Of a DNA stretch of 64,000 nt, positions 18,001-53,413 are shown in pieces. Numbering within the stretch: position 1 is the stretch's first letter; every line of letters starts with the position of its first letter. The notes below the pieces were generated by a model. The model searched no databases. It was not told the origin of the DNA and was given only the letters and a program-made list of their open reading frames with translations. This DNA is from Botryllus schlosseri. Its lineage: Eukaryota. Both the position numbers and the translations under genes were made by a program. The stretch is taken from the NCBI GenBank assembly GCA_051294905.1, contig CM119372.1:9984001-10048000 (forward strand), read 5' to 3'.

Positions 18001-19923
18001 ACTGTATGGCAAACCTGTTTATATGCCGAGACCCAGCCATCTGGTTCATGAACCACGACTAAGCCCTATAATTTCTCACAGCTCTTTGTAACACTGCCGG
18101 CCTTGAACTGACCACCTAGATTACATATATAAATCACCAGACATCTGTGATAACGGCTGTCCTAAGATTATAATCCTGCAAGATTTACTGCGCTATATGA
18201 TAGGGTTACCATACGTCCTCTTTTAAAAGGATTTGTCCTCTATTTTGACTTTGTGAAAGAGTCCTCGGAAGACGCCCAAATGTCCTCTTTTTTGAGATTT
18301 GGTCCTCTTTTTTTAGATTTGGTCCGCTTTTTTTGGAATTTTGGTTAAATAGGGCAAAATCTGACTGACATAGAGTAAATCAGCACTGAAGTGACGCCGC
18401 GGCGACTATTTCGCGAGCTGAGCCTGAAAGTTGACCTTTTTAAGTTAACTGACCACTAAGTGGGAAAAATTTACCATTTCGTCAGGATTCTCATCCGGTA
18501 TCGCAAGTTTGAAAATTGGAAAAGTGTCCTCTTTTCAGATTTCCAAAATATGGTAACCCTACTATATAATATCTCAACTGGAGACTCTACTGCAGTGGTT
18601 CCCAAACTTTTTCGAATTGTGGCACGCTAGTAAAATTGAAAGCGGTCACGTCACACTAACAAGAGAATAATCGTTGCTTCAAAAACAAAAATATGTTTTC
18701 ACGTTTAATTACGGCTGGGCAAGATCGAGTGTACCTGAGTGATTAGATTATGAGGCTAGAATACTTAACTTCGATTCGAGTATAAGATGCGATGACGTCA
18801 TAATAGTAATCACCACTTGAAAAGTACCAATATGTAGCGGTTGTAGCCTATCCAGTTTTTAATGCTGAGCTACGGTCAACTAAGGCTTCACGGCTCCAAA
18901 GGCGGGGCTACATCATCGGAACTATATTTCTCTTCCATGTTACATTACTCTTGGTGTAAAGGTGTATATTTTCATTAGCGGAAGAAATTTCGCCTCACTA
19001 CTCGACTCGAATCATTACAATTGATACTCAGTTCAAGACAATCCCTCTCGTTTACAACTTTTGATAGTGTCAAAACCGGGGCTGTGTGTTTTAGTCCATG
19101 GAACCATACTTACCCTATATTTTCAATTGTCAATATCAATCCGCGGTGTCGTCGTAATTAAAGATACGTGACGTTATAGCTAAAAAAACAATAAAAAAAT
19201 GTTTTAGACATGCTTGTATAATTTGATTTTTGTTAACCCAAGGGGTTGGGGTTCGAAATCAAAATCCAGTCATGCTGAAAGGGCAATTCTATCTCCAATA
19301 TTTTAGCTCATTTGCAATTAAGACACAGCAACAACAACTGTTTCGTTTCGTTGGAGCAATACGAAAGCGCGTTCTAAGAAGAAGCCTCGCATTGCAAATT
19401 GGTCTCTGAAAGGGAATAGCAGAAGTCTCAATACATGTTTATTACTGTTCGCGAAATCATAGCGAATATGAAATCATATTTCAATGCGTTTGTTCCTTTA
19501 ACAAGCTGTTGACGCACAGCTCATTTCACGCACCTGCAATCTATAGCAATGTATTGGGTGTGTATACTTATATGCATAAATGTCGTCGAATTTATTATAA
19601 AACGTGAAGAGCCGCTTACCTATATATTCAGTAGGATTCGTGCACAAAGTAAATATTTACCTTTTCCAGCATATGAGTTCTGGTCGGTGCAATATCATGG
19701 AAGTTCTCAGTATTACCTAGCAGTTGAATACTACTTCGGAGCAACTGAGTATATTCTCCTACGTTTATCCGAGTGCATGAATCCTGTCTTCTACAATCTC
19801 GGCTCTACGAAGATGAGGAAGCACAGCGTTCTTTTCATTCGGGAACTATTCAAGCTGAAGCCAAAATCGAAGCGATCAGCTGTAGCCAGTCCTTATCATG
19901 GAACAGGCAATACCAATGTATAA
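27..19923 (+). CDS. Class A (rhodopsin-like) orphan GPCR, paralog 1; 7 coding exons, 363 aa
   Basis: Exons 27-109, 3451-3579, 3644-3773, 3843-3971, 10609-10748, 17584-17810, 19670-19923; all introns GT..AG, phases compatible, total 1092 nt without internal stop. N-terminus MNRT..ANAT has N-glycosylation sequons; TM1 GIVLN, TM2 LCLSD, ECL1 W..C, TM3 FRL in place of DRY, TM4 W, ECL2 Cys, TM5 YIP, TM6 GYLP, TM7 NPVFY. Confidence 0.93.
1166..2511. mobile_element. Non-autonomous hAT (Charlie-like) element
   Basis: Ends CAGGGGTGGGCAAAC / GTTCGCCCACCTCAG, perfect 8-bp TSD CCCTAGGG (1158-1165, 2512-2519), GCGGGCCGC subterminal motifs. Confidence 0.85.
1850..2166. mobile_element. hAT MITE nested in 1166-2511
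   Basis: Ends CAGTGGTTCTCAGAC / GTTTGCGAACCCCTG, TSD CCTTAGAA/CCTCAGAA; related copy near 12180-12470. Confidence 0.75.
2580..3340 (+). mobile_element. 5'-truncated non-LTR retrotransposon of the RNase H-bearing I group
   Basis: ORF 2592-3131 has the RNase H end WIPGHVGIHGNEKADRLAK and C-terminal zinc knuckle CSYC..ETVEHFLICCP; AATAAA+(CAA)n tail; 14-bp TSD CCATGGCCACATAA (2566-2579, 3341-3354). Confidence 0.92.
4872..6154. mobile_element. hAT (Tip100-like) non-autonomous element
   Basis: Ends CAGGGCCGTAAC / GTTACGGTGCTG, perfect 8-bp TSD CTTGTAGC (4864-4871, 6155-6162); internal direct repeat of about 200 bp (approx. 5035-5230, 5375-5570). Confidence 0.8.
7827..9258 (+). mobile_element. 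Chapaev-3-like (CMC) transposon relic
   Basis: Degenerate frames KLKYAIFDGSQIR, HKAPNYKQLV, GANMSIKSYFLFRHL, GERLHKYI..RYQ..MADYCW match recalled Chapaev-3 C-terminal motifs; ends TATTGGTCAAC / GTTGATCAGTG; empty site in the related element at approx. 30228. Confidence 0.72.
10885..11047 (-). mobile_element. tRNA-derived SINE
   Basis: Minus strand: A-box-like GGCGAGACAGCGTATGG, B-box GGTTCGAGACC, body GTGTTGGAGG..GGCTCCTC similar to the SINE at 53146. Confidence 0.6.
13410..15460 (+). repeat. Diverged direct tandem duplication (approx. 13410-14470 and 14600-15460)
   Basis: Shared strings such as TAGGACTGCAAAAACCAGCA, GACTCCTCACGTCACT, TTTTACCAGCAAACATTCATAAAAAT. Confidence 0.8.
15589..16428. 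mobile_element. GGGCGATTTT-terminal element, uninterrupted copy
   Basis: Homologous to 4019-4668 plus 10070-10150 and to approx. 61842-62445. Confidence 0.65.
18201..18561. mobile_element. hAT Blackjack-like MITE
   Basis: TIR TAGGGTTACCATA / TATGGTAACCCTA, TSD CTATATGA/CTATATAA, GTCCTC subterminal repeats. Confidence 0.85.
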
Positions 19924-24574: not shown

Positions 24575-24871
24575 GGCCAGTGGCTACGCTGAACTGACTG
24601 AAGGATCAAGAATAGATGCGAACATCGATTCACTCAAACGTGTGAATCAATAATCGTATTCCGTCGCTTAATGCTATGTCTCAGTATAAATCACTTAGGT
24701 TCCGCGGCATTGAAAATCGCTCCTTTGAGCGAGCATAAACCGATAAAACGAAGCTTAAGTCTTTATTTGGGGTACCATCGTACAGTACGCGTCTAGGCTT
24801 ACAGACCTACAGATGTAATAAAACTATATCCCCAACAAAGAATACGTTGAAATGCAAATATACATACTGAC

Positions 24872-25573
24872 CATCGCATATTCGCCGTGCAAGCCGGCCA
24901 CCTGGCATCTTGAGAATCGCTGTGGTGAAAGAAAGAATGTGCATAGCCGTGGAAAAGGAAGTAGTGATGTCTAACGCCCAGTAGAACTGTATGAACGAAA
25001 GCATGTGATGAAAACGTATTTTTGAAAAACCAATGCGCCGTGTTTGGGCTTCTATTTACACCCATTCTTCAATGTATTTACAATGTGCACACACCTACAT
25101 ATATTGGCCAGATATTTTCGGTGGGGAAACGTGTCGTTTCAATTGATTTCTACTGGAGCGATCACGGCGGAAGTACGGCTCGCAGATAAAGGCAACAAAG
25201 TTACACATTACTATGTGACGTCAGTGCAACAATAATATAACACCTTACTCGACACAGTAAATCGGGCAGCTCCCAGTTATCAAAACCTAACGTCCGCCGA
25301 TAACAAAACAGTGGACTGATGAGAGCAGATATCATGTGCGATACGCAAAGAGAAAATATCAACCACACAAACGCGTTTCTGCAATAAATTACATTCGATT
25401 GGAGGCACTGTTGGAATGCTTTGGGTTAGTAACGCTTTGCTCACCTCAATTCTTTATATTTAGAAATCGCCAGGACCGTTACCAAATTTAGGCAGAAGCC
25501 TGCGAAGAGAAACGCCAGAATGACGATAGCCGATATCCATATCACTTCGTCGATTAACGGCTTTTCGTACGGC
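24872..25573 (-). pseudogene. Inverted, more divergent GPCR paralog with an internal deletion
   Basis: Minus-strand exons 25573-25445 (PYEKPLIDEV..GFCLN..KELR), 25378-25249 (NAF..LCVSH..LGFDNWELPDLLCR), and a 115-nt fused exon 24986-24872: the first 63 nt of exon 4 (FYWALDITTSFSTAMHILSFT) joined out of frame to the last 52 nt of exon 5 (SDSQDARWPACTANMRW). Exons 6-7 not found. Confidence 0.85.
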
Positions 25574-27470
25574 CTATAAAATGCAATCAAAATTTACGTC
25601 GGAATCCGTGTGTATGATTAGTGAACAAGAGACTAAAGCTTTAACATGCGATCAACGTGATCCACGGTGTGTGGGTGAAAGCAGGCGAACATAGCAGCCG
25701 AATCTCGCCTGCTGTAGAATCGAGTGACTGATTTTTCCAATTTAAAATAAGCACGACATATTGAAATGAAAGTAAAGTAATATAACATAATGGCTTCATT
25801 GGCACAAAGCCTCGGGCACACTTTGTTCACTGTATAGGACCCTGTCACATCTGGTAACCATTCGCCCCGCATGCATCTTATTGCCAAGAGAAAAAAAGAA
25901 GACACAGTGAAGGGCGTTCGTGGAGTGTGGAATGTTTCAACACATGATCTGGCTGGAAGATCCCGTAACGTCGACAGCAGTTTTCAAATGACTCCCTAGT
26001 AGCTAGATTCTAGACTTTAAAGAGCTCTAAAAACTTGGAAACAATAACTGAAATTGAAGCGTGGCTTTGTGTGACTGCAGCGGTCTCAGTCCTGTTGCGT
26101 GTGATAATATCATACTTTAACTTTTGCGGTAATCCTCGTTAATACGAAAACTTGTGTATGACTATATAGGTGACTTCGATTCAGAGTTGGAGAACTAGAA
26201 TTATAGCTACACAGATTTTTCATCCAAATTATAACAAAATTACCGAATTCACAAAAACGTGCTAAATGAATTAAATTCCGAAGTACAAAGAAAATCAACA
26301 AAAATCAAGTTCAGTTCATATAACATCGTAGTTCATTCCCATAAGAATGAGAATGGCAAATGTCTGTAGACAAAGCTTGAATCGCTACGCAAAATCAAGT
26401 TCTTCTGTATCATTTTCAGGATATCCAGAAATTAGAATTAGAATTGAAATTAGAGCAGAGAAAAATTCCACAAATTAGGTTAGAATTTGATTATAGCATT
26501 TCGCTCTAAATAGTCTAATTATGCATCTACAATTATTATCTAGTTGTCCAAGTCTTTTACGACTAGCAAAGAAACTTATATTACGATTGTACTCATCGCG
26601 TTGAATACGGAACTTAAGTTGACGTTTTGAAGGCTTGAAACTTATCACCTTCCTGGCCGCGGCTACACCACTTATCACAAATTACAATAATGGTATATTA
26701 ATAATAATAGCGATGTTGACGAGACAACACTTTAGGTCAAAATTCCATTGAAACTTGATCTTCGCTATTTCCGTTCTGCTTCATCCATGCTGATATGTAT
26801 ATCTAATTGTGTAATGACAAGAGATGTACATTTTGAAATTATCACTGTTTTGCAATGTCGCGTCTGTCTCTGTCACCGGGATATTCCGGAACAAACTAAC
26901 TAATTGTGTTAGGCAAACTACCCTGTTCCCAGTTTCCACTGGCCGGGTTACCGCTGCCAAGTTCTCATTGGATTCGACTTAGCGTGCACAAATACGACGA
27001 CATGCGCATTGCGCATACTGAGGCCAAAATAAGCTCGTATTGGAGTATTATAACATCGCTATTCTTGAACTATGCATGAGTTCTAAATTGACAGTAAATG
27101 CTGTAAATTCGTCTCGCAGTGATGTACGTAATGCACTGCCTAAACCCAGGACACTGATATCAATATCATAATTTATACAAGATTCCATTTTCTGATAGAG
27201 GCGTGACTCTCATAGACACTCATAGACAGTCAAAGTTCCTTGAGCTAATTTTAGGAATCATACGTTAGTACTTCTCGGAAGCACACTTATCATGGTCTAC
27301 GCGTACGTACGATTTCAATTGGAATATACTCTTGAGAAATTCAAGGCAGCACGCACAGAACACATAAATAGTAGACATACATCATATTGGCATGTAACGC
27401 TGCAAATAACACTACACTTCAGAATATATCATTGGTAGGACGTATTGTGTATGCTGATGAATGTTGAAGG

Positions 27471-27544
27471 ATGTCATCTTACAATTCATCGACTGCGATG
27501 GCTAAAAGTCACGGATTTCAATCGTTGAACGAATCCTCGACGCC
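27471..27544 (+). CDS. Extra first coding exon (paralog-3 type): alternative first exon of paralog 2, or orphan relic
   Basis: ATG..CC|GTGAGT, 74 nt, phase 2, MSSYNSSTAMAKSHGFQSLNESSTP; homologous to 55983-56056, with about 400 bp of upstream sequence also homologous (approx. 27050-27470 vs 55600-55980). Confidence 0.6.
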
Positions 27545-29385
27545 GTGAGTACAAAATCCTATATAGATGTGTATCGCAGCATGTCCACTAGCTACAGAAT
27601 AGGGCGCACCAGGCGTTACATTTTTTAAAAAATCGCCTGTGTTGGAATTTGTCGAAGCCGGTTGTTGATTCACGTAAAACCCATTACTGAATTGGATGGT
27701 CGTTCCGTCGATCTGCTATTTTGGAGTCCTGATTCATCGTCTGGATCTAATCAGCGATCAAATTAATCAGGTGCTTTGTTATTGACATGGTATTGTAAGG
27801 CTGACATATATCGTCGCCGTATAGCTTGATGACTGCCAAAGGGTTATTGCTGCTCTGAATACGCATTAAATGATCAATGCTGGTAATTAACCAGTTCAGA
27901 AATGGGAAGCTTGGCATTTTCAGATTTATAAAAACGACATCGCCATGACTATATTACTATATTATTATTATATAGCATTGTGTCTAATCGCATTGTACAT
28001 TGTGTGTAACTTGTTCATATGAAAATTATAACCCAATGTTGTTGTGCTATTACCGAACATCAAAATCAATAACTCAAATCGACCTTCATCATCAGTGGTC
28101 AATGATTGGATGCATTTCTCTCTGTCCGGCGAATTTTAGTTTAAAACCGTTACCATTGCAAATTTACAAACTCCATATACCATGTAACTATATGTAGGCT
28201 AGTCAATATTACACGTGCTGTCTGTTAGCGATTTATTAGGGTCACAGTTATCGGTTGAAAATTTACTATCAACAAATGATACACAGGATGCGAAGGATGG
28301 GTTAGAACAGGGGCTAGAACAGGTAATTTTTGGAGTAGAACAGGATGGAGTTGACATGTTTTCGTCTTGCGGTATCTGTCTATAAGGATTTTTGAGGAAA
28401 TCACCGCAAGAGCTCAGACTGAATTGGTATCTTCCTGCAAGATGCTTATAAATAGTGCATAGTGAACATAATTGCAGGGGCGTAGCCAGGGTGTCTCGGG
28501 GATCGAGTTTGAGAACCACTGTGCTAATGGTGGTCCGGTAACCTCGAGCCCTGATTAGTATTTAGCATTTCCAATACGTTGCAGCCTTGTTCAACCTCAT
28601 TTCAACAAGCCAGTGTTGGCTAACCTGCAGACGTACGGTCGCATGCAGCCGTTAAACAATAATTATGCGGCCCCAATACACATAATTAAATTAGCGTGTG
28701 CTGGCGACAGTCAATATGCAATTTGAATTAACGAATTGGTTCTCCAATCTTTGAGAGATTTTAATTAAACTTGAAAATTTTATTCACGCTTGGCGCGATT
28801 CAGGGTTACTTGGATTTTTCGTTTTTAGTATGATAGTGAAATCTGAGCCCCACAGCTTAAATGCGAACCGGAGAGGAAAATGATGTACCCCATGAACGTA
28901 TAGCAAGTATCGGAATCGTTTGCGTCTCACGAATGAAAGTTATTCTCGTACGTTTGGGCGATTCCGATACGTATTTCTAGATGCCTATGATCCCGATGGG
29001 CTGTGAAAAACAACAACATCCAACAACGAGGTTAATAAAAACCGAAAATGCACCATCATTGATTTTGTGCCCAACAATTTCAAAAACACCCCTCTGTCAT
29101 CTCTAGCGGTTAATTTGGTAGCTAGATAGTAATCCTGCGGGATGTGTTGCTGGTACAATTAGAAACTTTTATACGCAAGGTATATCTCAAGATATCAGTG
29201 ATGGCACAGAACACCAAAAGGGCTCTCCACGGTGCGGAGTTTCCAGTGGCCAATTTAACATGGGTATAAGACGACGTCCAGATTGGCAATGACGACTCTC
29301 CGCCAGAATGCGGCCTTATGCTATATATGGAATCGAAGTATGGCCGTGAATAGCAAAAAGATTGAAAACTCCAGGATTAGGCTTG

Positions 29386-31551
29386 CAGGGTTGCCATCGA
29401 CATGGATCAAAAAATAAGGACAGTCGAAAAATTAAATTAGCATGAAAAAGCGTTTTTGTACATATACTGTATTTATACGAGCCGTGGCATATCACATTCC
29501 ATACTTTTCACCAGAAACAATCTGCTCCAGCCACTCCCTGTTATTAGAAAGTGCTTCATGGATCTCGCGACAGCTCAGTTCTAGGTTTACCTTTATTTAG
29601 GGCCGAAACAGCACTTCGTCAGCCCCCCCCAAAAAAAATACCGTTGGTGTTGCCCCCTGGGGTGATAAACCAAATTTCGTCACCTCGTTAAGACGAGGCG
29701 TCAACCAAGATGGAAAAAGGCCGCACACCAAGTTTAGACAAATCATTTTTGAGCGTATGGAGCAACAACTCCTGTAACAATGCTTGTCGTCTTGGTCCTG
29801 GCCGAAGAAAACTTATTTGCAATGTTGGAATCGGAGAATATTGCTTTTAACAACTGCGATGTGTAATCGTTGGTGAGGAATGATTGCTGGTGTTTGACAG
29901 TATAGAATGCCTAGGTACCCTCTGCAGCTGCTGCCTTGTAGTCTGAGGTCGTTGGTGCTGATCGACTTGTGGAAAAATTATTCATTGACTGGCTCAAATT
30001 AATCATCATGACACACTTCTTGTGTTTTGGGGTATCAGTGTAAGTTGAAGTAGCGGTCTTTCCTATGGCCTCCAGGTTAATGTCACAATTGCAGATATTG
30101 CTATGTGCGAAACACTCGCCCTTCAATATTCGTTAGATACCGTTGAATACTCACTCATAATCGACACGAAAAACGATTTCACGCCCGTTTATTTCACTAA
30201 TCAGATTTAGTCTTCTTTGTAGCTAAAACTATATGCGCAAGTGCAATATAATTTGGAGAAATTTAGCAATGATTTATAGCTTTACTACTTTTTAACCAAT
30301 GTGTCGACTGCACTGCGCTTTTTTTCACTACGCAATAAATGCGGCTTTCCCCACAGCTTGAGCTTATTCTGCTGTGGACCAAACAGCAGTAACCTGGCAC
30401 TGCTGTTTACTGCTAAAATGACGTCCGCTGCGGTAGCTTGGTACAGCCGAAACTGCTGTACCCTCACTCACTGCCCTAGCTATCTCACTATTTAGAAGTC
30501 AAATCTTGTGGTGTGTACGTCACGAGAGTTCCTTTCATTTATGATGTCATAAAATCTCGACGAATAAGCTTAATTTTAGAATATTATGCAACATGCAACA
30601 TGGATACCAGAGGAAAACGATCGAAGTTTTGTAGCGGTTGAAAATAAGACAAAATAAGGACGCAAGTCGAAAATAAGGACATTTCTTAGAAATAAGGACA
30701 GTCAAGTTTTCTAAGACGTGGCGCTTCAAAATAAGGACAAATCTTAGAAATAAGGACGGTATGGCAACCCTGCATGCATAGGTTGCCATACCGTCCTTAT
30801 TTCTAAGATTTGTCCTTATTTTGAAGGGTCACGTCTTAAAAAACGCAACTGTCCTTATTTCTAAGGAATGTCCTTATTTTCGACTTGCGTCCTTATTTTT
30901 TCTTATTTTCAACCACTGCAGAACTTTGATCGTTTTTCTCTGGCATTTGTGTTGCATAATATTCATAAATTCTGCTTTTGCGTCGAGATTTTATGACATC
31001 ATAAAGGAAAGGAACTCGTGTGACGTTCACGCCATAAAATTTGACTTCTAAGTGGTGAGATAGCTCGGGCCGTGCCCTTGAGTGGTTTCGTCTGTACCAA
31101 GCTACCACGGCAGACGTCATTTTAGCAGTAAACAGTAGTACTCGGTTCCTGCTGTTAGGTCTACAGCAGAATAAGCTCAAGCTGTGGAAAAGGCAGCATT
31201 TATTGCGTAATGAGTAAAGGCGTAGTGCAATCGATACATTGGTTAAAAAGCAAGCAGTAAGCTGTTAATCATTGATAAATTTTTCTAAATTATATTGCAC
31301 TTACGCCAACGCTTATTTAGGAAGGGGGGGTGACGAAGTGTTGTTTCGGTCCTGAGTAAAGGTAAATCTAGACCTGAGCTCTCACGAGATGCATGAAGCA
31401 CTTTCTAATAACAAGGAGTTGCTGGAACAGATTGTTTCTAGCGAATATGCTACGGCTCATAAAAATACAAAAGATGTTCAAAAACGTTTTTTCATGCTAA
31501 TCTAATTTTTCGACTGTCCTTATTTTTGAGTCTATGTCGATGGCAACCCTG
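29386..31551. mobile_element. Two inverted, adjacent deletion derivatives of the Blackjack-like hAT element (palindrome)
   Basis: Outer ends CAGGGTTGCCATCGACAT / ATGTCGATGGCAACCCTG; centre GGACGGTATGGCAACCCTGCATGCATAGGTTGCCATACCGTCC at approx. 30755-30796; left copy keeps transposase N-terminal relic 29911-30126. Confidence 0.88.
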
Positions 31552-31987
31552 TTTATATGGAATCAGAGAGTTATGTGGTCAGGGCTCAGGGGTGTACAAG
31601 TTTTGAGTAAACGGTAAACGGGTGTACCACGACGAACTAGGTCGAAGAAAACTGAGCTAGAATATTAGTAAACGGTTATATGAAGCTGTAATTAGAGTAC
31701 GTTGCCTGATCAAACTACCGTACGTTATATTTTGATTGGAAATTCGGCTATATAAAGTTTGGCTAGTCGAGAAGCTTGCCAACTCGGTCGCAATTCTACC
31801 GTGCTTGTAATCACTTCCTACCTCTCAAGGCGTATCCTTGAGATCCTGTCAATATAAACCACTGGTTTATAGGTAAGAAAGTAATTTATTGGCTAGCTAA
31901 AGTTCACGCCAATTTAACGGTAGCAGTCGCAACATGTTAACAACAGTCAACTCTCTGGCCTAATCGTAGATCTAAATACAATAACAA

Positions 31988-32445
31988 TATATATATCGGC
32001 TTTTCAATTAGATAAAATAAAATGAAAAGGGCAAAAGAAAACAGGAAACAAAAAAACATCGAGATAATCAGTCTTAGGCTCGTATTAAGCGTCTCCAACG
32101 TAGGCGGTCGTAAGCGTCTTCAAGCGACAGCCCGCGTTGCGCTAGGTCAGTCTTCATTGTCGAGCGCCATGTTTTCCGATTCCAGCCACCTCTGCGCCAT
32201 GACTCCGTGGGAATGTGATTGATGATGGCGGCGGCTGGTTGCTCGTCTTGATGCCGCACTAGATGGCCGATTAGGCGGAAGCGTCGTTCAGCTGCCAGTA
32301 GACTGCATGTGACCGTTCCTGTGAGTTCTCGCAATGCATTCGTGGATATATGCTCCTGGTGGTGAATGCCGAGTGCATAGCGGAGGAGTGCGTCGTAGTT
32401 AGCGTTGAGCGTCTTAGCCAGCTTCTCTGTCAGCGTGAGTGCCTC
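31988..32445 (-). mobile_element. 5'-truncated RTE-clade LINE
   Basis: ORF 32074-32460 has the RTE C-terminal pattern RRFRLIGHLVR..RRGG..RKTW..DL..AYDRLRWR; flanking direct repeat ACAATAACAA (31978-31987, 32446-32455). Confidence 0.82.
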
Positions 32446-33554
32446 ACAATAACAACACACTCAACAAAACAATCTCACATTACAACCCATTCTCCGTAAT
32501 TCCTAGCTCAGATAAGATAGAAATACCTGAATGAATCACATAAATATGCAATCGACTGGAGGGAATATGACACTGAAACTACGAGGGCAATGGCGCCACA
32601 GCAGGCACCAGTGAGCGGGATGGCTCATGTACAAATCGAACAATTACTCGTGTTACAGAAGCCACTAACTCTTGTTTATAAGAATAAGCTTGTGTACCTT
32701 CCAAAACGAATGAAAACTCACCCTTTGTATCCATCAATTAGGCATAAAGACATGTGTTGGCATCCCTATTTCGCTTAACAGTCTGTTCTATGTACTGCCT
32801 TCCTTGGCAGACAACAACTATGACGACCTATCCACTTTTCCTATTTCCGCTCGGTCTCAGAGGACCACCTTGTGGCGGGCCGCAGGTCCCTTTGAGGAAG
32901 TACTTCGTAACCGGTGTGTCCACGACACACTATAGGGGTTCTCTCTCTGAACCACTCTCTGGGATTCCGTCTAGGTCGAGACATACACTCTACCCATACA
33001 TATGATTTTTGGTGATACGCCAGTCTTGGTCATCACTAGTGGTAAGCAAATAGGCCCGACCAGTAATCGAATTATGACTGTTTGTGGCTCTGTAGTCGTG
33101 TGCGGGTGCCGTTCGCATATATGGGAGGGTATAATATGGGGTTCGAAATCGGACCCTCTCATTCTGTAATGTCAATTCTATCTCTAATATATTTACAAGT
33201 TCATTTGAAATCAAGCAATTGGTATCACGCTGTTGCGCTTCGACCGAATGATGCCACGATGGCACTTTCCAAGGTGAAGTCTCGCATTTCTAAATTGCGG
33301 TATCTGAAAGGGAACAGCGTAATTCATAAATGATTTCCAATGATTTGCCATCTGCATTCATTATCATGTCTTCGCTTTGTGTGAAAAATTTATTTTATTT
33401 TATTTTTCTTCTTTTAACACTCTATTGAAGCCCAGTTCATTTTGTGCACTAGTATTCTGTAGTATAATGTATTAGATGCTTAGTTATATGGGTAGTATGG
33501 TAGATTGTGGGTTTTATGACTCAGCGAAAGTTTGGGGTTCTGCGATAAGGCTTA

Positions 33555-34180
33555 CAGGTTAGCGTAAGCGTTCCCCAGGCTATAATAAAGGTTGGGAACC
33601 ACTGTATTGAGCGCGATATCTCTAGCTAAATCTATGTACGTGCATGGCCTACTACTGTTTTTAGTAGGCCATGGTACGTGATACGAAGGAAGAATAATAT
33701 TTTCGTGGCGATAAATTTATCAAGAGATCGACGTAGTTCTCGCCATATCTTGGTCACTTACTTGGTAAGCCTACGATACTCTCTCACCATGGATTGTATG
33801 AACCCTAGAGTTTTAGCTTTTAGTCTCATTCGCGCAACCTAAACTTTATCGACGTATCTGAATAAACTTCATTGAGTGTATCTGTGGATTAAGAATTCAC
33901 TACCCATGCAGGACAACAGCAGACGGGAGGTCAAGTTACATTAGGTTAGCTACCACTGTATTCCTGGTGGAGCAAGTTCGTTCGTCAGTTACAGTGGGTA
34001 GACCATCATGATATCGGTTTTGATTAGTGGGGATTATTGGGAAGTTCCACCAGACCTATAAAGTATATAGATATAAATATGTCGGCCAGAGCGGAAGAAA
34101 AAAATATCCGTGTCAGCAATCGTCTGCGAAACAGACCTACGCGTGGATATTTTATAGCACGTTACGTGTCGGAATAACCA
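33555..34180 (+). repeat. Non-coding block shared upstream of paralogs 2 and 3 (partner approx. 52690-53460)
   Basis: Collinear similarity including identical GGGATTATTGGGAAGTTCCACCAGACCTATAAAGTAT; no transposon ends seen. Confidence 0.75.
33643..33673. mobile_element. 31-bp P-like micro-insert or excision footprint
   Basis: CATGGCCTACTA-CTGTTTT-TAGTAGGCCATG between 7-bp TSDs GTACGTG; the homologous site near 52750 has one GTATGTG and no insert. Confidence 0.75.
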
Positions 34181-35210
34181 AAATTTACACCATATATACA
34201 ATCGGAGGTGTAATCGCCAGTCAGCATAAACATTTAGGAAGAACTACTTAAAACTTTGGGCGCGGGCGAAACAGTACGCTAACGGATCTCTTGTGACGCA
34301 TTGAAAATAGATAACGTTACAATCCTTAAGTCTCATTCGACCCTGATTACGCCACAGCATGCTTATATGATAGGCATATGCTTGGACGATAACTCTCTCC
34401 TAACATGTTCATGTTCAGGTCATATTGGTCATTATTCCACAAGGATTAGGAATCGACTTCGATATTAACAAAATCAACAAAATGCTGAATGTGGTCTGAA
34501 GATTGTACAGAAGCAAGTTGAGAAGCGATTAAGCACCTCGGGAAGAACGACTGCTCTTTCACGATATCAACAAATGAGATCACAATTCACGGCATAAGTC
34601 TGACAATAATGTATTTGATATACCATTGCATATTTTTGAGCGTCACCTGTGGCATTTATTACTCTTCAACCAGGAAATAGGTTAGTGAGTTGCATTCACA
34701 GTTTTTGCAGTGCATACGTTTGTACGTCGGTATACAGTGTGGGGTTTGTACATTGCAGTTTAATGCTTTGTTGTTGTAACGACTAACGAGTATATATGGC
34801 ATATGATTGTCGCTGTGGATTATTTTATGACTAAATTGGAAATATTCCATTAACAAAATATTTATTTGACATTTGACGAATATTAGATTCACAGATTGCT
34901 AACTTACAAGATACATATATGTGCATATAGGCATCGACTTCAGTTTCTCTTAACACTTGTTATACAACAGTATGAGGGTTACAGACGACTGAAAGAGACG
35001 ATGAGTAGTAGGAATATAGCACTAACTCAGAAGACTATGAGCGGGTGAAATACTGATATTATAAATATATTCCAAAGGCGAAATACAGACTTCGTATCAT
35101 ATTTTTTCGAACGAAAAGTAACGACCCCAAAGACTGGAAAGCGGGCACAGTCAGTCAGACCCATAATTTCAAGGATAATTGGGCAAGTTCTATCACTCTA
35201 AATGTTGCAC

Positions 35211-35617
35211 CATAGTGTCCTATATGGTGTCGACACAGGCAAATCTCACGCCTCAGTGAAATTGTATCACGTCACAATTTCCATTTGGCTACAGGCAATT
35301 TGACGGTCATTTATGACCGGCATGCCGAGCATTAAATTTGGTAAAATGGGTATCAATCGAAAGCTGACTCTGTACTGATTACAAAAATATAAATTTTATT
35401 CCGCTCGTGGCCCTGGAACTCCCACAATCAGCCTCGAATTTCTCATTGTTATGGAGATTGGCATTGGGACGCAACAATGCTGTCTGGCGAAACGGGAGAG
35501 TAGCTCAAGAGAAAAAGAGCCAGACAGCATTGTTGCGTCCCAAATGAAAATTGTGACGTGATACAATTTCACTGAGGCGTGAGATTTGCTTGTGTCGACA
35601 ACATATAAGACACTATG
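35211..35617. mobile_element. Long-TIR MITE, P-superfamily-like
   Basis: About 75-bp TIRs starting CATAGTGTC and ending GACACTATG, perfect 7-bp TSD GTTGCAC (35204-35210, 35618-35624). Confidence 0.8.
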
Positions 35618-36490
35618 GTTGCACCATGTAATTTGAACACGAACAATTCAAATAAATAGATGAGCAACACGTGATTCACGGTTGAGTACCGCGATGCAGC
35701 TACCAATTTCTTGTATCTTCGTAAACAGATATTGTATGCCAACGGCCGGACAGTATTAAATCTGGGGTAGGCATCACTTCTTTGCTAAGTTCGGAGTATG
35801 TTGCTATTCGGACGTCTTCAGTGTGATCGGAGTCTTCGGACTGTGTACGCTCGCACTGTGTTCGACCACTTGGACATCATGTCTGGAGTATGTTAGCACT
35901 GTGTTCCGCCACTCAGACATCATGTATTTGGTATGTTCGAAATGTGTTGCTACTCGGACATCATCGCTTCAGTATGAACGGAGTCTTCGGACTGTGGACA
36001 CCCCGGGCATGATGTCTGGAGTATATTTGCACAGTGTTCCGCCACTGTGGACGGAAAGCTGGATAATTTAAGCAAATTTTGTAACAAAGCGAGTAAAATT
36101 TTGAGATTCTCAAGGTGTTCAGTGTTGAATTTTTTTGCTGCAAGCGCCATGCATAGAGTTGCCCGCAGTTGAAATGCTATAAATTCCAATCAAAGATGTT
36201 ATAATGAAGTGAAAATATTATTATGTGAAAAAGGTTCACAGTGCAGAACCTGCCAAGGTTCGTTTGTGAACGCGAACCTCTAGATTTCTGAGGTTCACAC
36301 ACAGAACGCGAACGTGAACATCACTTTCACGCCATCCCCAGTTACTATTTTCATAACTTTCTTTCGCCAACATGCCCCTAGTCGAGCCCATTAACAATTT
36401 TGCTATCCGGCATTTGTGATTTGTACTACTACTATAACCAATGTCTAAATATACCAGTTGAGCTATTTGCATATACTTTTCTTCGTAACC

Positions 36491-39400
36491 ATGAACCAAA
36501 GCATGACTCCATTCACTGATTCATCGGTATCGTCAACCATTGCCAATGCAACAGGAGATGTGACGACCATCACGTAAGAAATATATCTATATATCATTTT
36601 TTGAATGAACTATTCAATGTTGAAACTTCACAAAAGGAGATTTATAAGCCTAAACCCCTATGATACGAAAATTAGTTCCTTTGATAAACGTTCGCGTTAC
36701 GACCAATCTAGGCTTCAGTGCATATACTCATATGCAGACATAACACTATTATTACACTATTATCTGCTTTTAGACCGTACGAAAGACCGTTTGGCGAGAC
36801 GGTAACATTGGTGATGGGGTTTATTTTATTTACCTTCATGTTCCTCGGAATTGTTCTCAACGCAATAACTGTTGCTGTGATCGTAAAATACGACAAATTG
36901 AGGTATACGATTCCTATCATGCATATTGATTTCTACAATTGTATCATACCGATACTATTACATTACAGAAATATATTTTCCATTTTTATATTTTCCTTGT
37001 GTCTGTCGGACATGGTTTCAGCATTGATAAGTCCCCTCTACTGGTATCACAGAACTCTTGGATTCGACGAGTGGAATTTACCTCCTTTCTTATGCAAGGT
37101 AAATCAAAAATAATATATTTTACCGATTCTAATTTCATTCGCTATGATACATATCATAACAGGTCTACTGGTCAGCGGATATTATGACGTCTTTTGCAAC
37201 GGCAATGCATATCGTAGCATTCGGAGTATTCCGTTTGATTTCTGTCTCGTGTCCACATATTACGGCAAAGCTCCAAAACAAGGTTGCTGTTGTAAGTGAC
37301 TAAATATTCTTTCCTTTAATCATTCGTATTTGATAACACTTAACAATTGCGATAAGCATCGCCATTTAGTGTTGTGTTCAAAATGAAAATCCGTATTTGC
37401 TTACAATATATTTTATTATTGGGGTGTCAGGATCCTGTCGGCGAAGCAATGCGGGATAAATGTAAAAATGCTTGTAGTAGCCTATTTCTATCAACAGTAG
37501 AGATATGTAGCTACACTAATCCTTCCACGTAAGTAAATGATCCCTCACGATAGCAAATATCAAGCATGGACATGTGCCATATATCAACTGTCGATGGGCA
37601 ATGTTGCGTCCAAACGTACCATAGACAAATTTCTTTCGTGAGAAACACACGATTCCGATTTGAGATTGAGAAGGGCGCTCCTATATTAAAATCGAAAAAT
37701 GAAGCTATGTGGATTAGCGCGGAGTGCGAAGAAAATTTCAAGATTAAGTAAAATCTCTCAAAAATTTGTAAGCAAATTCGTAATTTCAATATGCATGTCG
37801 ACGGCCGCCCACACATACTAATTGAATTAGGTGTCAACGGCCGCACAAATTCCCTTCTACGGCCGCAGGTTGCCCAACCCTGTTCTAATAGTATACATAT
37901 GGTATGTTTTACGGCAAGTTTGAATCCGCATTCCAGTTTTTGAGTCTTTAACATTTCTGACAAATTTACCCAAACTTGTTTGAAAAAAGCTAAAAAACAT
38001 TGAACAGGACATCATTTTATTTCAAGGTAATGTTGCACTGAGACTAATCCTAATGCTGATGGTGACTGCAGAGAGCACGGGGTCGTTCTGCACTGCCGTG
38101 CTAAATTTGATAAGTTTTGTAATTGAATTGATTTAGGATAGCCTAATTGCGGGCGAAACCGGGCAACCGATATTGCACCTAAGTCTGTCTTATGCAGTGC
38201 AGTTCACTAGCTATTAACAACAGGTACCCAGCGCACCGAGCTTTAGGCTACTGCCAAAGCTTTGAAGTAATGAATAACTTACTGATGGGAATTACTCTAA
38301 ATCTTCAAAGAATATCAAAATTTTGCTCAAATGAAGTTTAAATCAGCCACCGTTGAGGGCTACAGCTTGAGTTTGAATTTGGCGAGCTTTCTTTAATATG
38401 AAATAAGTTTCATCTTCAACAATCGTCTTCTTAGAATGTTTGTGAAACACATGTTTAGTCAGAATTCATACAGACTTTGTCCATTTCTCGCCCACCCACC
38501 ACCACCACCACCCTTGAGAGCCTCCCGCGCCCGTCAGGTGGAGAAGCGCTGCTGTAAGTAAAGAATCTGTGACATCGACTACAAATTCCGAGAAGGTAAA
38601 AAAGTACTCATGCAGTTCAGAGGTTTCAGGAGTAATTGCCCGAACGGTAAGCGATAACAAGCGAAAACCCTAATGATGACCCTTTGTATGCAAGTTACAT
38701 GGTGCTCAATAAATACAATTATTATCTCTTTGGTCGCACAACTATATGACTTATGACTCAAAATTCTCCCTGGTATTACAATGACATTTGTTCTGTTCTA
38801 TCAATCGAATGAGTATTTTCATATTATCTGAGTTGCAGTAAAAAACCTTCACATTTCTTACTTTCTTTCGTGTCGTGAATAGATGCAGATCGACGATTGG
38901 ATAACTTTTTATACCGTGACTCAATATCGTATACGTGAAACACTAACATCGTAGTCATCGACAACCTATCTATCAACCATAACATCTAAAATTACAATTC
39001 TTCGTTCGTCTGTGCGCATATGAAATTGTGCATATGTGCGTCATGGCCGAATTTGCAAAACCAAGCATAATGTATATCCAACATAGGTACGTTTCGCTGG
39101 TTTCGTTGGTTTCAGTTATACTGGCCAAATTATCGAGTGTGACTGAAGACCCGCTCAATGTGTGAGAGATTCGGTAACATTAGCAGAGGCCTGTATTTAA
39201 CTAATTTTTTCATTTATTCATTGGTATAAAATTCCATTGATTTAATCTTCAATTTTAATACTACATTACAAAACATTGTTTAAAACACAATTCACTTCAA
39301 TTAAAACCTCAACTATAATACTCAGTAATGATAATACCTGATTATATAGTTTGGCTGTTTCTTAAGCAAGTAGAAAGATGCATCAATTAGATTTTACTCG

Positions 39401-42400
39401 GGCTATATTCTGTGAAACTTGGGTATTGCGGTCGGTGTGTGACAACTATGGCTATCAAGCATTTGTCATGTAGAGTCGTGATAAGTGAATAACCAGGAAC
39501 CGATAGTGGGACATATATTATTGTAGTCCAACTTCATTTAGTAACGTAGAATACATGTTGAGAATCCTTGCTTCCTGCGGCCATGAAAACCTGGAGCTTC
39601 AATCGCCTTCTCTTCGGTGCATTTTCTGTCTGAATTGCTTCTACTTGCATTTGTGACACGGATATGGGACTGCGGGGGACTCTACTCTGACATCGTTTCC
39701 GAATTGTTTTTATTCTTAATCGCAGCTTATCGCCCTACAGATATGGATTGTGAGCTTTGGATGTGGCTTTGTGCCTTATTGGATTTGGTTTGGAGCGCGG
39801 AAAAGAGATCGCTACAGCGACTCACAAGACGCACGATGGCCGGCATGCACCATAAACATGGAATGGTAATTCGCATTACTTCAAACGTATCATAGATAGA
39901 TACGGTTCGTTGCCTTTCGATAACACTGGCATTACGATCAAATCCTCATGTCGTTTCTTTTTTCAATCTAAAGGTCTGCATCTGAAAAAAGGGAAACCTA
40001 ATAAAAATAATCAATTGCCAATATGGAAATACATGAGACTATGTAACATGTTTTTTTCCTTGGGAATTAATTGTTAAAATACAAATTCTAAATCACAAAT
40101 TACACTCGCGCTGGCATTATACCTTCGAAATCAGCATTATTTCCTATAATATTAAAGTCAGCATACCTTATGGGACTCTTCTGTTGATTAACAGGTACGG
40201 ACAGTACACGATGTTCCAGAAGATCGGGTTTTCTCTGTTCCTCTATATACCGTTGATCCTTGTCCTATTTATATCTGTTCTTACTTGCCGTCGGGTGTAT
40301 GCTACTACCCACGCCTCCATCACACCAGTAACAAGTAAAAAGCTGCAAAAAGAAAAACAAGCCGTACTTCAACTGACTCTCATCGTAGTGTCGTTTATGA
40401 TGGGATATCTCCCGTTTACAGGTATATATGTCAAATTTATTGAGTTTTTATATGTATATAAGAACTGCCCTGAAAATATTAGAATCAATAAGAACAGACA
40501 AACGACAACAAAAGCTTACTGCAGCAGTCCTGGAATCAAGTCTTCAAATCCCATATAATTTCGAATCACTGCAAATTTTGACTCTAGTCAAGTCAAGTCA
40601 TTTCAAAAACTCTAAAGTCAAGTCACGAGTCAATTACCGCAGATTTTTTGAAAGCAACTCGACTCAAATTAAGTAATCTCGAAGGTTTCGGTTTCGAGTC
40701 AGTGTCAAATCATGAAATATGTTCAGTTTCTGTCGTTCGATTTAAATGTGTGGATGCCTGTGCAGTGTGCATAGTTGCATATACGATATGACATATCGAA
40801 CTAGTAAAACTTGGCCCATTGCCATTTCCAAACCACCAAAACGATATGAGGAGCCGCAGTTATTTATGTAAATTGAAGTCCATGCCAGTCGAATCACGAT
40901 TTTCTGATGACTCGACTTGACTTGACTTTGTATTGACTCGACTTGGACTCGAGTCATTGCGGATGACTCGAACCAAGTCATATGACTCGAGACTCAGACA
41001 GCCAAGAAAGACATTTCATTGTAATTTGGAAGAGTAGCATTTCGTCTATTGGTACTGGTAAATGAAAATGAGACCAGAAACTGCTAAAAGTGAGGAAAAT
41101 TAGTATATTATAAATGCGAACCATTTGATGTCACCAAACAGACTTGTAAAAAGTGGGTTTAATAACACTTTAACTGGAAACTGAGCAGTCAACATAATGA
41201 CTTGGACTCGGACTCGATTCATAATACCATGACTCGGACTCGGACTTGACTCGGAGGTGAATTGAAAATGACTCGACGTGATTCGAGCTCGGAGCCTTTT
41301 GACTTGGTTACAACCCTGGTCCATGCTACCCATAAGGCATGCTCCATTCAAAATATTATCGGAGTAAATGACGTTTATTGACTGAAATGCTGCACGAATG
41401 CTATAAAGCAGTGATTCCCGACCGTGACTCTCAGAGCTGCATGCGGCTCCAAGGTAGCCTTCTTCCGGCTCTGATTGACCTCTAAATATGCCACAGTATA
41501 TAATAGACGACAGTTGTTGTTTGTTCCTATAAATAGGTACAGTCAATATCCATATATGAATGCTAAAATGAGGGATATCAGCTATGTTTAAAGCCGTCCA
41601 GATTTCGCGTCATTTAGCGTTGCCTGTCCATTGACCTGGCTGTCAAAGCTATGAAGGAGAACGAATTGCCAGAAAGGAGGACATTTGGGCGTCCTGGGAG
41701 GCCATTTTCGATTTCCTGAAAAAGCAAAACAAATCCTCCTAAAGGAGGGCGTATGGTAACCCTAGGTAATAAGATTATAACGACCGACAATGCTATTATG
41801 ACGACGGTTAAGGGCGTGCCGAAGATTTTGTGCCTGTGATGTTGTTGCTGGTGGAGCTAACCAAATCACAAACGTAAACTGAAATACGATGCAGTTAATA
41901 AAGGACTAGGATTGATTGCGTGGCCTTACCAAGTAGAATATTCGGTGGATTGAAAATCGAGAAATCGTCACACCATATTTTTCATATGTCAAGTCCGAAT
42001 CAAGTCATGGCAGTGACTCGAGTCATCCCAACACTGTATTGCAGAAGTGTGAGTCTAGACGTCTCCTTTTTCACTTCTTCATTAATATCGACCAACAATC
42101 AATATAGTTCCGATCTGCATTTACGTTGTTTGTATGTCGGCCATCTGGTTCATGAACCAGGGCCACTCTTTAATTCATTTCATTAATTTATTTCTTTGTC
42201 AGACTGCTAGCCTTGTCCTGCCGACGCAGATTACATTGAAATCATCCAACTTCGATAACGACTGTACTGAAACTATATAATCAGGTCACATTTGCCATCT
42301 AATGTACATGCGATATCTGAACTAGATACGATAATGTTTTCGCAACATTTATGCTTGCGCGGCTGGTCATTGCAATTGGAGAGCAAGCATTGAGTATTAA

Positions 42401-43112
42401 TACAATGTAATTGCGAACGTAGCGTTACCCTGTAGCAGTGGTTCTCAACCGGGCTACTGCGACACTCTGGGATGCCGATTGCGGCATGGTATCTGCGACA
42501 AAATGAGTAAAAAATAGAAATTAGGAGCATCCAAATTTTGAGTAGCATTTGGGAAGCTGATGACTGAAAATGGTCACCGGCAATGAGTAATTGATATTAC
42601 CGAAAGTGATAATTTTTTTTCTTGTTGCCAACATCAGAATATGCGGCTTAACAGAGATATGACATAGGTTGATGACCTTGTTTTAATTCATCAGCATCCC
42701 AAACATGAACTTAAGCTAGCCTACTTGAAGCGCTAGGGTGCTGCAAGCTTTTTTCACCTTTCAGAAAGTGCCGCGAGGTCAAAAAGGTTGAGAGCCTCTG
42801 CGGTGTAGTCAACGATGATTAGTGTACATTGTACAGCGTATATAAATGTGTTTTTCAGCATATGAGTTCTGGTCGGTGCAAGATCATGGAAATTCACAAT
42901 ATTATCGCCTAACTGACTACTACTTCGGTGTAACTGAGTATATTCTTCTGCGTCTATCCGAATGCATGAATCCTATCTTCTACAATCTTGGTTCTTCAAA
43001 GATGAGGAGTCACACCGTTCATTTCATTCGGGAACTGTTCAAACTGAAGTCGAACGCGAACCGATCATCTCCATCCACCCCTAGTCACGAAACAGGCGAT
43101 AACAATTTATGA
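36491..43112 (+). CDS. Class A orphan GPCR, paralog 2; 7 coding exons, 363 aa
   Basis: Exons 36491-36573, 36774-36902, 36969-37098, 37163-37291, 39726-39865, 40195-40421, 42859-43112; exon lengths (83,129,130,129,140,227,254) identical to paralog 1, GT..AG introns, open frame ending NPIFY...GDNNL*. Confidence 0.93.
40525..41318. mobile_element. hAT-type MITE with GAGTC/GACTC subterminal repeats (paralog 2 intron 6)
   Basis: Dense AAGTC/GACTC/GACTT arrays, right end GGTTACAACCCTG; left boundary approximate. Confidence 0.55.
42436..42800. mobile_element. hAT Charlie-like MITE
   Basis: Ends CAGTGGTTCTCAACC / GGTTGAGAGCCTCTG, TSD CCCTGTAG/CGGTGTAG. Confidence 0.75.
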
Positions 43113-50654: not shown

Positions 50655-50684
50655 GTGATAGCCCTGTTCAAAGTGTGTTTTACT

Positions 50685-51959: not shown

Positions 51960-53145
51960 CTTCGAGCTCCCCCAATTGGGGTTTGGGTGCGGCAGTTATG
52001 GCCCTGGTAGATCGTATAACTCTTGTGTACATTATGGCCCTCCGCTGTTCCACTCACGTCGCGAAACCCAATGATCCAATCCCCGCTGTGTGAATGGGTT
52101 TTCGCTCCACTACCGTGGGGAATAATATAACCTTTCCGGACCAGCTTCAAACAATTCTTGGATGAGTGGGATACTACTGAGAAATGGAGAATGTATTTTT
52201 CATATGCAAGCTGTACAATGTACAGTACATAGTAGGCCTATGTCTTGTATCTACTGAAGTTGCGATGTCAAAACATTCAATCCAATTATACAAACTATTC
52301 ATGCGACTTATGGCCCACTATTTGACAACCCCTGGTCTTGGCAGTGGTGAGCCATTGCACGTCAAGGCAATACGAATGGTCATATCAACAAATTTATCCT
52401 CCGTGGAATGATGTTAACATCAATATCATGCTGCTGAGTTTAGACCGAACAACACCACGATGACACTCTCCGCGGTGAATAGGGTTACCATAAGTCCTCA
52501 TGTAGGAGGATTTGTCCTTGATTTTCAGGAAATCGAAATCATGAAATCTGCGGGTGGGTCTTTCGAGAGAAGGACAAAATGACCTTTATCTTTAGTAGTG
52601 ATGTATCAGATGTGTAGTTGGATGTGTATTTTGTTTGATTTTGGCTTATATGAATCAACGCAAAATCGGGATTCCAAGAAGGTTTGAAGTTTAGCGTAAG
52701 TGTTACGTTAAGAATCACCGCCTTCGAGCAATGTCTCTAGCTAATGCTATGTATGTGATGCGCAGGATTGCAGGAAGCATACAATTTTTTGTAGTACTAT
52801 TACCACGAGATTGGCAAAAATCGCACAGATCTCTCAATATGCTTACCATGTAAACTCGTTTCAGATGTTTTAGCTTTTAGACTCATTCAAGCAACCTACC
52901 ATCACGACCTATCTGATTAAACTGCGTTGAGTGTATCTGTGGGTGGGGAATTCACTAGCTGCCAATATTTTGGCAAAGCAGGTCCGTTCCTATGTAACAG
53001 GGGATATGCCATTATTAGATCGGTTTTGATTGGTTGGGATTATTGGGAAGTTCCACCAGACCTATAAAGTATGTATATATATCGAATAGAACGATTACAG
53101 AACGGAAGAAAAGTATATTGGTCCGGGAAACCAACAGATGTTTGG

Positions 53146-53413
53146 GGTTCGAGTCTCGGCTCTGCCATGTTTCTATGTGTCGGAGGCTTAACTGGGCTCC
53201 TCATCGCCGATCCCGCTGTAGTACAGCGCATTGAAAAGCCCAGACGAAGAGAGAGCCGAACTCATGAAAGAAGGCAGCAAATGAGCCGAAAAAAAAGACT
53301 GAAGTTCATGAAGACATGCCATTATGCGATTATGAAATTTACTGTGTGGGCGCAAATAACCACGAGTTGCAAGCGCCAATTATATGAGTTAATAAAAACA
53401 ACAACAACAACAA
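53146..53413 (+). mobile_element. 5'-truncated tRNA-derived SINE with (CAA)n tail
   Basis: Begins at B-box GGTTCGAGTC, ends AATAAAAA(CAA)n; perfect 14-bp TSD CAACAGATGTTTGG (53132-53145, 53414-53427); absent from the homologous site near 34135. Confidence 0.85.

What the first reader, a model, noticed from the sequence alone, without database searches (positions are those of the whole stretch)
27471..36902. Two interchangeable first-exon types: paralog 2 may have alternative N-termini
Seen: type A exon (MNQS..ANAT, at 36491 and 27) and an unrelated type B exon (MSSYNSS..LNESS, at 27471 and 55983) are both phase 2, so either splices in frame onto exon 2. The 27471 copy has no gene body of its own, yet keeps ATG, a GTGAGT donor and both NxS sequons; versus 55983 I count 7 purely synonymous and 4 amino-acid-changing full codons. 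Inference: alternative promoters give swappable glycosylated ectodomains (variable first exon, constant body), or it is a recently orphaned exon.
Basis: partly seen in the sequence, partly recalled or inferred. Interest (0 to 1): 0.7.

Follow-up and report, generated by a model that had tools for sequence, protein, structure and literature searches.

The report
Spare first exon before sea-squirt receptor
In a cluster of duplicated sea-squirt receptor genes, one intact start exon has no gene of its own and likely serves as a second start for the next gene, giving it a different short outer tail, though it may instead be a recent leftover and no RNA read shows either.

Summary
Exon B at 27471-27544 has an ATG, two sequons, a phase-2 donor and no gene body. 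Against its copy at 55983 it differs at 7 synonymous and 4 amino-acid-changing codons (dN/dS 0.08). Joined to exon 2 at 36774 it gives an open 361-aa class A GPCR of an ascidian orphan family. Matching phase proves nothing, since both exon types must fit the same exon 2. The tails are 25-28 residues, not ectodomains.

RNA could not test the junction: three informative runs had no reads on paralog 2 exons 3-5.

Long neutral decay of B is rejected, but recent orphaning is not. New here: a broken fourth paralog on the minus strand 1.9 kb upstream shows local deletions, and a conserved kB/TATA-like element precedes the other first exons but follows this one.

Odds: alternative first exon about 50%, silent young relic about 38%. 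Either mechanism is known (GPR35 and OPRM1; birth-and-death arrays). The scan has noted this family 128 kb upstream and a similar orphan exon in another genome.

The parts
27471..27544 (+). Exon B1: intact type B first coding exon (24 codons + 2 nt, two sequons, GTGAGT donor) with no body of its own
27060..27470 (+). Upstream block homologous to 55622-55982 (68% identity, z 15); putative promoter or 5' UTR, with no run conserved beyond uniform divergence (p 0.83)
27545..36773 (+). Putative 9,229-nt intron from B1 to exon 2: nested inverted-repeat elements, a LINE-like fragment, segment X2 and exon A2; no family body exon
36491..36573 (+). Exon A2: type A first coding exon of paralog 2, 200 nt before exon 2
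36774..43112 (+). Paralog 2 body, exons 2-7 (36774-36902, 36969-37098, 37163-37291, 39726-39865, 40195-40421, 42859-43112); open with A2 and with B1
   Evidence: Pfam 7tm_1 hits below the curated cut-off on 2 of 6 single exons
27..19923 (+). Paralog 1: exon A1 (27-109) and exons 2-7 (3451-19923), open frame; its upstream region is outside the window
55983..60159 (+). Paralog 3: exon B3 (55983-56056) and exons 2-4 (59651-60159); no type A remnant detected in its first intron; exons 5-7 not in the window
24868..25573 (-). Paralog 4 pseudogene: stop-free exons 2 and 3, exon 4 fused out of frame to the end of exon 5, no first exon, no exons 6-7; as distant from paralogs 1-3 as Styela genes are
33137..34260 (+). 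Segment X2, shared with 52424-53553; holds a 37-bp identical run (34030-34066) with ATTGG, a kB-like 10-mer and TATAAA; its front third also matches paralog 1 intron 6 (19245-19576)
52424..53553 (+). Segment X3, upstream of B3 (identical run at 53036-53072)

Best explanation
Exon B at 27471 is an intact first coding exon without its own gene body that likely serves as an upstream alternative start of receptor paralog 2, splicing over 9.2 kb onto exon 2 and skipping exon A. Shown: the exon, its frame, its donor, the open 361-aa product on paper, purifying selection between the two B copies, and the absence of any other body. Inferred: that the block upstream of B is a promoter and fires; that the splice is made; and that paralog 2 is caught in the two-start state that any switch between B and A first exons must pass through. 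The product would be the same seven-helix receptor with a different 25-residue glycosylated outer tail. The main effect would be a second expression pattern, with at most modest effects on surface delivery or signalling, as in GPR35.
For: B1 keeps ATG, frame, donor and both sequons; dN/dS against B3 is 0.077, p 9e-5, and B1 is no less constrained than the helices (pN 4/53 vs 37/300, p 0.48). Simulated neutral decay over half or more of the B1 branch is unlikely (p 0.147 or less in 12 of 12 settings; 0.004 or less for the whole branch). B1/B3 synonymous divergence (9/16) is compatible with the paralog 2/3 split (32/87, p 0.17) and exceeds the paralog 1/2 split (22/86, p 0.02), as expected if B1 is paralog 2's own older first exon. 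No exon of another body lies in the interval. The exon-2 acceptor is the top-scoring acceptor between 27600 and 36774, on a matrix that was trained on it among 15 acceptors. RefSeq models of relatives carry alternative 5' ends: Ciona isoforms differ in their first 1-4 residues, and a Clavelina locus has one first exon annotated on two different bodies.
Against: No read shows the junction. In X3, X7 and X16 depth was 0 over exons 3-5 and at most 0.09 in the bin holding B1, so the gene was not seen expressed and the test is empty. A pairwise dN/dS cannot say where the selection acted: orphaning within the last 10-20% of the branch passes (p 0.05-0.80). The B upstream block shows no excess conservation (p 0.83), whereas segment X does (p 0.002); X lies before A2 and before B3 but after B1, which fits B1 belonging to a separate upstream unit. 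Paralog 4, 1.9 kb away, has lost parts by deletion while its exons 2-3 are still stop-free. The intron would be the longest in the array (9,229 vs 6,835 nt). None of the isoform sets read (28 sequences fetched of the 38 listed from 10 clusters) puts two unrelated full-length tails on one body. The Clavelina case differs by one residue in the tail and may be read mis-mapping.
Confidence: 0.5

Rival explanations
1. B1 is a young, silent relic: the first exon of a B-type sibling whose body was recently deleted, or a recent partial copy of a working B-type gene elsewhere in the array. Its clean dN/dS was earned while it, or its donor, was attached to another body.
For: Recent orphaning is not rejected. 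Neighbouring paralog 4 shows deletions with intact exons left behind. The order X-first exon-body holds for paralogs 2 and 3 and leaves B1 outside the paralog 2 unit. The upstream block is not unusually conserved. An unchecked scan note reports at least four more copies 128 kb upstream, which could be donors.
Against: It needs a clean loss of 6 kb or more, or a partial copy, recent enough to leave no disabling change; no body remnant was found. X is a doubtful unit marker: its front third also sits in paralog 1 intron 6, so it may be an old mobile element. A young orphan with its promoter intact could still splice onto paralog 2.
Confidence: 0.38
2. B1 was the first exon of the minus-strand paralog 4 and was flipped away from it by an inversion, which killed that gene.
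For: The window holds 4 first exons and 4 bodies. B1 lacks a body, paralog 4 lacks a first exon, and they are head to head 1.9 kb apart; one inversion gives this geometry.
Against: The ages do not match: B1/B3 pN is 4/53 against 63/200 for paralog 4/3 (p 0.0002), and pS is 9/16 against 51/58 (p 0.009). Paralog 4 falls outside the clade of paralogs 1-3 (100/99 support). The only inverted match from the gap between paralog 4 and B1 is a 32-nt one (E 0.08).
Confidence: 0.05
3. The assembly dropped or misjoined sequence after B1, and a body exists in the animal.
For: The array is tandem and repeat-rich.
Against: The window has no N.
Confidence: 0.05

Closest known systems
Ascidian orphan class A GPCR family labelled 'growth hormone secretagogue receptor type 1-like' (e.g. 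Styela clava XP_039267545, XP_077967113; Clavelina and Ciona members)
   Same: Paralogs 1-3 match Styela members at 46-50 of 86 residues over exons 2-3; short S/T-rich tails, mostly with sequons; several paralogs per species, some merged into double-length models.
   Different: No model read has two unrelated full-length tails on one body. Neither A nor B aligns significantly to the tails of relatives (best p 0.015 among 44 tests).
Human GPR35 short and long isoforms (PMC9450150; abstract and opening paragraphs seen)
   Same: [quoted passage not shown]
   Different: GPR35 long is a 31-residue extension of short. Here the tails would be mutually exclusive and unrelated, and each is also the only first exon seen for another paralog. 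GPR35 is shown experimentally; this case is not.
OPRM1 exon 11 promoter (PMC8534031; passages seen)
   Same: An independent upstream promoter and coding exon, 21-30 kb away, splices to exon 2 and skips exon 1.
   Different: Skipping OPRM1 exon 1 removes helix 1 (6TM forms). Here exon 2 holds helix 1, so both forms would be 7TM.
Multiple-variable-first-exon clusters: UGT1, GCNT2, protocadherins (PMC1885805 abstract and outline; PMC3325998 search listing)
   Same: A first exon with its own promoter spliced to shared downstream exons.
   Different: Those clusters have tandem arrays of homologous large variable exons and one constant region. Here there are two unrelated 74-83 nt exons and separate bodies.
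Birth-and-death receptor arrays with orphan exons and pseudogenes (general knowledge, recalled)
   Same: Tandem paralogs, a broken copy (paralog 4), and a mosaic signal between copies (p 0.005).
   Different: B1 shows no decay yet.

Membership tests
Class A (rhodopsin-like) GPCR | Match to 7tm_1 and close kinship with 7tm_1 proteins | tested here: met
   2 of 6 single exons hit PF00001 below the cut-off (E 1.2e-4, 4e-3). All 28 full-length relatives found with the Styela relative P0002 carry PF00001.
Class A (rhodopsin-like) GPCR | Helix landmarks N1.50, D2.50, R3.50, W4.50, P5.50, P6.50, NPxxY and the helix 3/loop 2 cysteines | tested here: met
   Read by eye in the spliced models (numbering recalled). 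DRY is replaced by FRL, with the arginine kept.
Ghrelin receptor (GHSR) orthologues | Clearly closer to GHSR than to other class A receptors | tested here: inconclusive
   Relative P0002 vs PDB: GHSR E 2.5e-17, rhodopsin E 1.9e-15, neurotensin receptor E 1.2e-13. Source names of relatives range over opsin, NMUR, TAAR and adrenergic. No tree with vertebrate receptors was built.
Ghrelin receptor (GHSR) orthologues | Responds to ghrelin | not testable with these tools
   Needs a ligand assay.
Gene with alternative first coding exons (GPR35/OPRM1 type) | Two ATG-bearing exons with donors in frame with the same next exon | tested here: met
Gene with alternative first coding exons (GPR35/OPRM1 type) | Transcripts that use each exon with the shared body | tested here: inconclusive
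   No reads on paralog 2 exons 3-5 in 3 informative raw runs; 3 other raw runs gave 0-1 reads; contigs of 2 runs showed no splice joint.
Gene with alternative first coding exons (GPR35/OPRM1 type) | A separate active promoter before each exon | tested here: inconclusive
   B upstream block alignable but not over-conserved, with no TATA match; no CAGE or ATAC data available.
Multiple-variable-first-exon cluster (UGT1/Pcdh type) | Tandem array of homologous variable first exons | tested here: not met
   A and B do not align; one copy of each lies before paralog 2.
Multiple-variable-first-exon cluster (UGT1/Pcdh type) | One common set of constant exons | tested here: not met
   Each paralog has its own body.

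The most novel reading that the evidence does not exclude
Promoter-plus-tail cassettes of two unrelated types are reshuffled among the paralogs of an ascidian GPCR array. Paralog 2 runs both cassettes under selection, paralog 3 shows only B, and A is the only one visible for paralog 1 in this window. The array thus records a first-exon replacement in mid-course, with one receptor core made in two cell contexts with different glycosylated tails.
Probability: 0.35. Interest if true: 0.45.

Novelty: new member of a known kind. Interest (0 to 1): 0.27.

Why it matters
If B1 is used, paralog 2 is a clean, small example of how a duplicated receptor swaps its promoter and N-terminal tail through a two-start stage, testable with one RT-PCR; it would also correct the gene model. 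It would not be a new mechanism: N-terminal isoforms by promoter choice are common in GPCRs (PMC9450150). If B1 is a relic, it is ordinary turnover in a tandem array. The conserved kB/TATA-like element before two paralogs is a small lead towards immune regulation of an orphan ascidian receptor family.

Tried and rejected
No whole genome is held, so the region upstream of paralog 1 and other B-type copies could not be searched.

Run search: no RNA holder listed. Of the 24 runs listed, 8 were laid. X10 (1 read), X12 and X17 (0 reads) are no test. One search showed 15 of 59 joints, all in repeats; the 44 hidden rows could not be read. X23 gave 3 contigs and X24 gave 1; none showed a joint, and two ran into introns, so they look genomic.

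Homolog search with exon 7 found nothing. A B-exon pattern scan of metagenome contigs found 0 matches. Rfam gave 0 matches.

An apparent likeness of B and A to Styela tails was rejected (44 tests, best p 0.015). A type A remnant in the first intron of paralog 3 was not found (z 1.5 or less). Segment X as a decayed exon 3 or exon 7 was not supported (p 0.07-0.68). X as the real promoter with A and B as second exons is not favoured: the acceptors before A2 and B3 score 3.6 and 2.6 against 8.4-17.2 for real ones. B1 splicing into the 5' side of A2 was considered by eye; only weak acceptors are there.

The order of paralog splits is unresolved: the protein tree joins 2 and 3 at 90/80, and polarised sites are 10 vs 7 the other way.

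Eight paper searches listed no paper on first exons of this family. Kamesh 2008 (PMC2396169, passages) has no 'secretagogue' or 'motilin' text and lists 23 'Other Rhodopsins'; its supplements were not read and may list family members.
Full report
What the window holds. The window is a tandem array of seven-exon class A GPCR genes. Paralog 1 (27-19923) and paralog 2 (36491-43112) splice on paper into open frames of 1,092 nt with GT-AG introns. Paralog 3 shows its first exon (55983-56056) and exons 2-4 (59651-60159); exons 5-7 are not in the window. The nearest named relatives are Styela, Clavelina and Ciona proteins labelled mostly 'growth hormone secretagogue receptor-like', so the animal is probably a styelid ascidian (inference). 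The label is weak: a full-length Styela relative scores E 2.5e-17 to GHSR and 1.9e-15 to rhodopsin.

The observation. B1 (27471-27544) has an ATG, 24 codons plus 2 nt, two sequons and a GTGAGT donor. It differs from B3 at 14 of 74 nt, 7 synonymous and 4 amino-acid-changing codons; dN/dS is 0.077, p 9e-5. Joined to exon 2 at 36774 it gives an open 361-aa protein. It is not a chance pattern: a strict first-exon filter returns only the four known exons, and a stricter two-sequon version returned 0 hits in 600 kb of Markov-1 sequence. No family exon lies between B1 and A2 by protein HMM or exon DNA profiles. The matching phase carries no weight, because each type already serves the same exon-2 start in some paralog.

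A fourth paralog lies on the minus strand at 25573-24868, head to head with B1. Its exons 2 and 3 have no stops and keep their splice sites, exon 4 is fused out of frame to the end of exon 5, and no first exon or exons 6-7 were found. It is as far from paralogs 1-3 (43-45 of 86 residues) as Styela genes are (46-50 of 86). It is therefore unlikely to be B1's lost body (pN 4/53 vs 63/200, p 0.0002), but it shows that deletions have struck next to B1.

A second feature, segment X (33137-34260 and 52424-53553), holds a 37-bp identical run (p 0.002 against uniform divergence). The run contains ATTGG, a kB-like 10-mer and TATAAA (motif names recalled). The 10-mer alone is not rare: 7 matches against 4.4 expected. 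X lies 2.4 kb before A2 and 2.9 kb before B3, but 6.5 kb after B1. That order would put B1 in a separate upstream unit. Its weight is limited, because the front third of X also sits in paralog 1 intron 6 (E 1e-18), so X may be an old mobile element.

How long can B1 have been idle? Simulated neutral decay on the B1 branch passes the observed state (intact ATG, donor and frame, at most 4 amino-acid changes) with probability 0.004 or less for the whole branch, 0.147 or less for half, 0.05-0.60 for a fifth and 0.25-0.80 for a tenth, over 12 settings. So an old relic is rejected and a young one is not. Synonymous divergence B1/B3 (9/16) fits the paralog 2/3 split (32/87, p 0.17) and exceeds the paralog 1/2 split (22/86, p 0.02). 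If B1 is paralog 2's own older first exon, it has sat beside A2 since before paralogs 1 and 2 split and must have been in use. If it came from another B-type gene by recent deletion or partial copying, its record says nothing about use now. The 410 nt upstream of B1 align to those of B3 at 68% (z 15) while the flanks do not, but they show no over-conserved run (p 0.83). Paralog order is unresolved, and exon 2 differs from exons 3-4 in its affinities (p 0.005), a hint of exchange between copies.

RNA. Eight of 24 listed runs were laid. In X3, X7 and X16 (1.5-1.9 billion letters read each) repeats were covered, but depth was 0 in the bins for exons 3-4 and exon 5, and 0.09, 0 and 0 in the bin holding B1. 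The 15 joints shown, of 59, were all in repeats. X10, X12 and X17 gave 0-1 reads and are no test. The 4 contigs from X23 and X24 showed no joint, and two ran into introns. The junction is untested, not refuted.

Relatives. Of 38 members listed from 10 clusters I fetched 28 sequences, a few of them from outside those clusters. Ciona isoforms differ in their first 1-4 residues or start at a later ATG, and several proteins have more than one transcript accession. A Clavelina locus has one first exon annotated on two bodies, but the competing exon differs by one residue, so mis-mapping is possible. None has two unrelated full tails on one body. Tails do not align across species.

Mechanism and odds. 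I favour use as an upstream alternative first exon (0.5). A change of first-exon type between paralogs should pass through a two-start state (inference), paralog 2 has that layout, the ages fit, and a young orphan with its promoter could splice onto exon 2 as well. A silent young relic is close behind (0.38); inversion from paralog 4 and assembly error get 0.05 each. The product would differ only in a 25-residue S/T-rich tail, so a second expression pattern is the likelier effect (inference).

Comparison and novelty. It would work like GPR35 (PMC9450150, abstract and opening paragraphs) and OPRM1 exon 11 (PMC8534031, passages). It fails both defining features of UGT1/protocadherin clusters (PMC1885805, abstract and outline). 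Eight searches listed no paper on this family's first exons; the library lacks most subscription journals. Unchecked scan notes report the same family 128 kb upstream and a similar orphan first exon, judged a relic, in another genome. The second note prompted the partial-copy version of the rival, which I could not test. Verdict: a real feature, a new member of a known kind, interest 0.27.

Noticed in passing
window 24868-25573 (-): Ancient paralog of the family, now broken: exons 2-3 stop-free, exon 4 fused out of frame to exon 5, first exon and exons 6-7 absent; the usual helix-2 aspartate reads histidine.
   Followed up: yes
window 34030-34066 and 53036-53072: 37-bp identical run with ATTGG, a kB-like site and TATAAA, 2.4-2.9 kb upstream of two paralogs; candidate immune-responsive promoter or enhancer, or the core of an old mobile element. 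Run X7 had depth of about 0.9 per mate direction in the bin 33614-34264, X3 and X16 none.
   Followed up: partly
window 36774-36902 vs 3451-3579 and 59651-59779: Exon 2 of paralog 2 leans towards paralog 3 while exons 3-4 lean towards paralog 1 (p 0.005); possible gene conversion.
   Followed up: partly
window 29386-31551: Nest of inverted-repeat elements inserted one inside another (arms of 48-177 nt, 86-90% complementary).
   Followed up: no
window 46334-47701 and 49285-50659: 1.37-kb direct duplication at 95% identity between paralogs 2 and 3.
   Followed up: no
window 27975-28036: Short stretch matched by thousands of partial RNA reads that continue into other sequence and A-runs; probably the 3' end of an abundant transcript or repeat from elsewhere.
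   Followed up: no
window 32074-32460 (-): 128-codon open frame that looks, by eye and from memory, like the C-terminal end of a LINE reverse-transcriptase ORF.
   Followed up: no
window 36775-37107: The 66-nt intron 2 of paralog 2 is in frame and stop-free, so retaining it would insert 22 residues in the first inner loop.
   Followed up: no
proteins P0063, P0116 (Styela) and P0073/P0099/P0075 (Clavelina): Public models fuse tandem copies of this family, or share a first exon between two bodies.
   Followed up: partly
window 60170-60400: Long ATTC microsatellite just after exon 4 of paralog 3.
   Followed up: no
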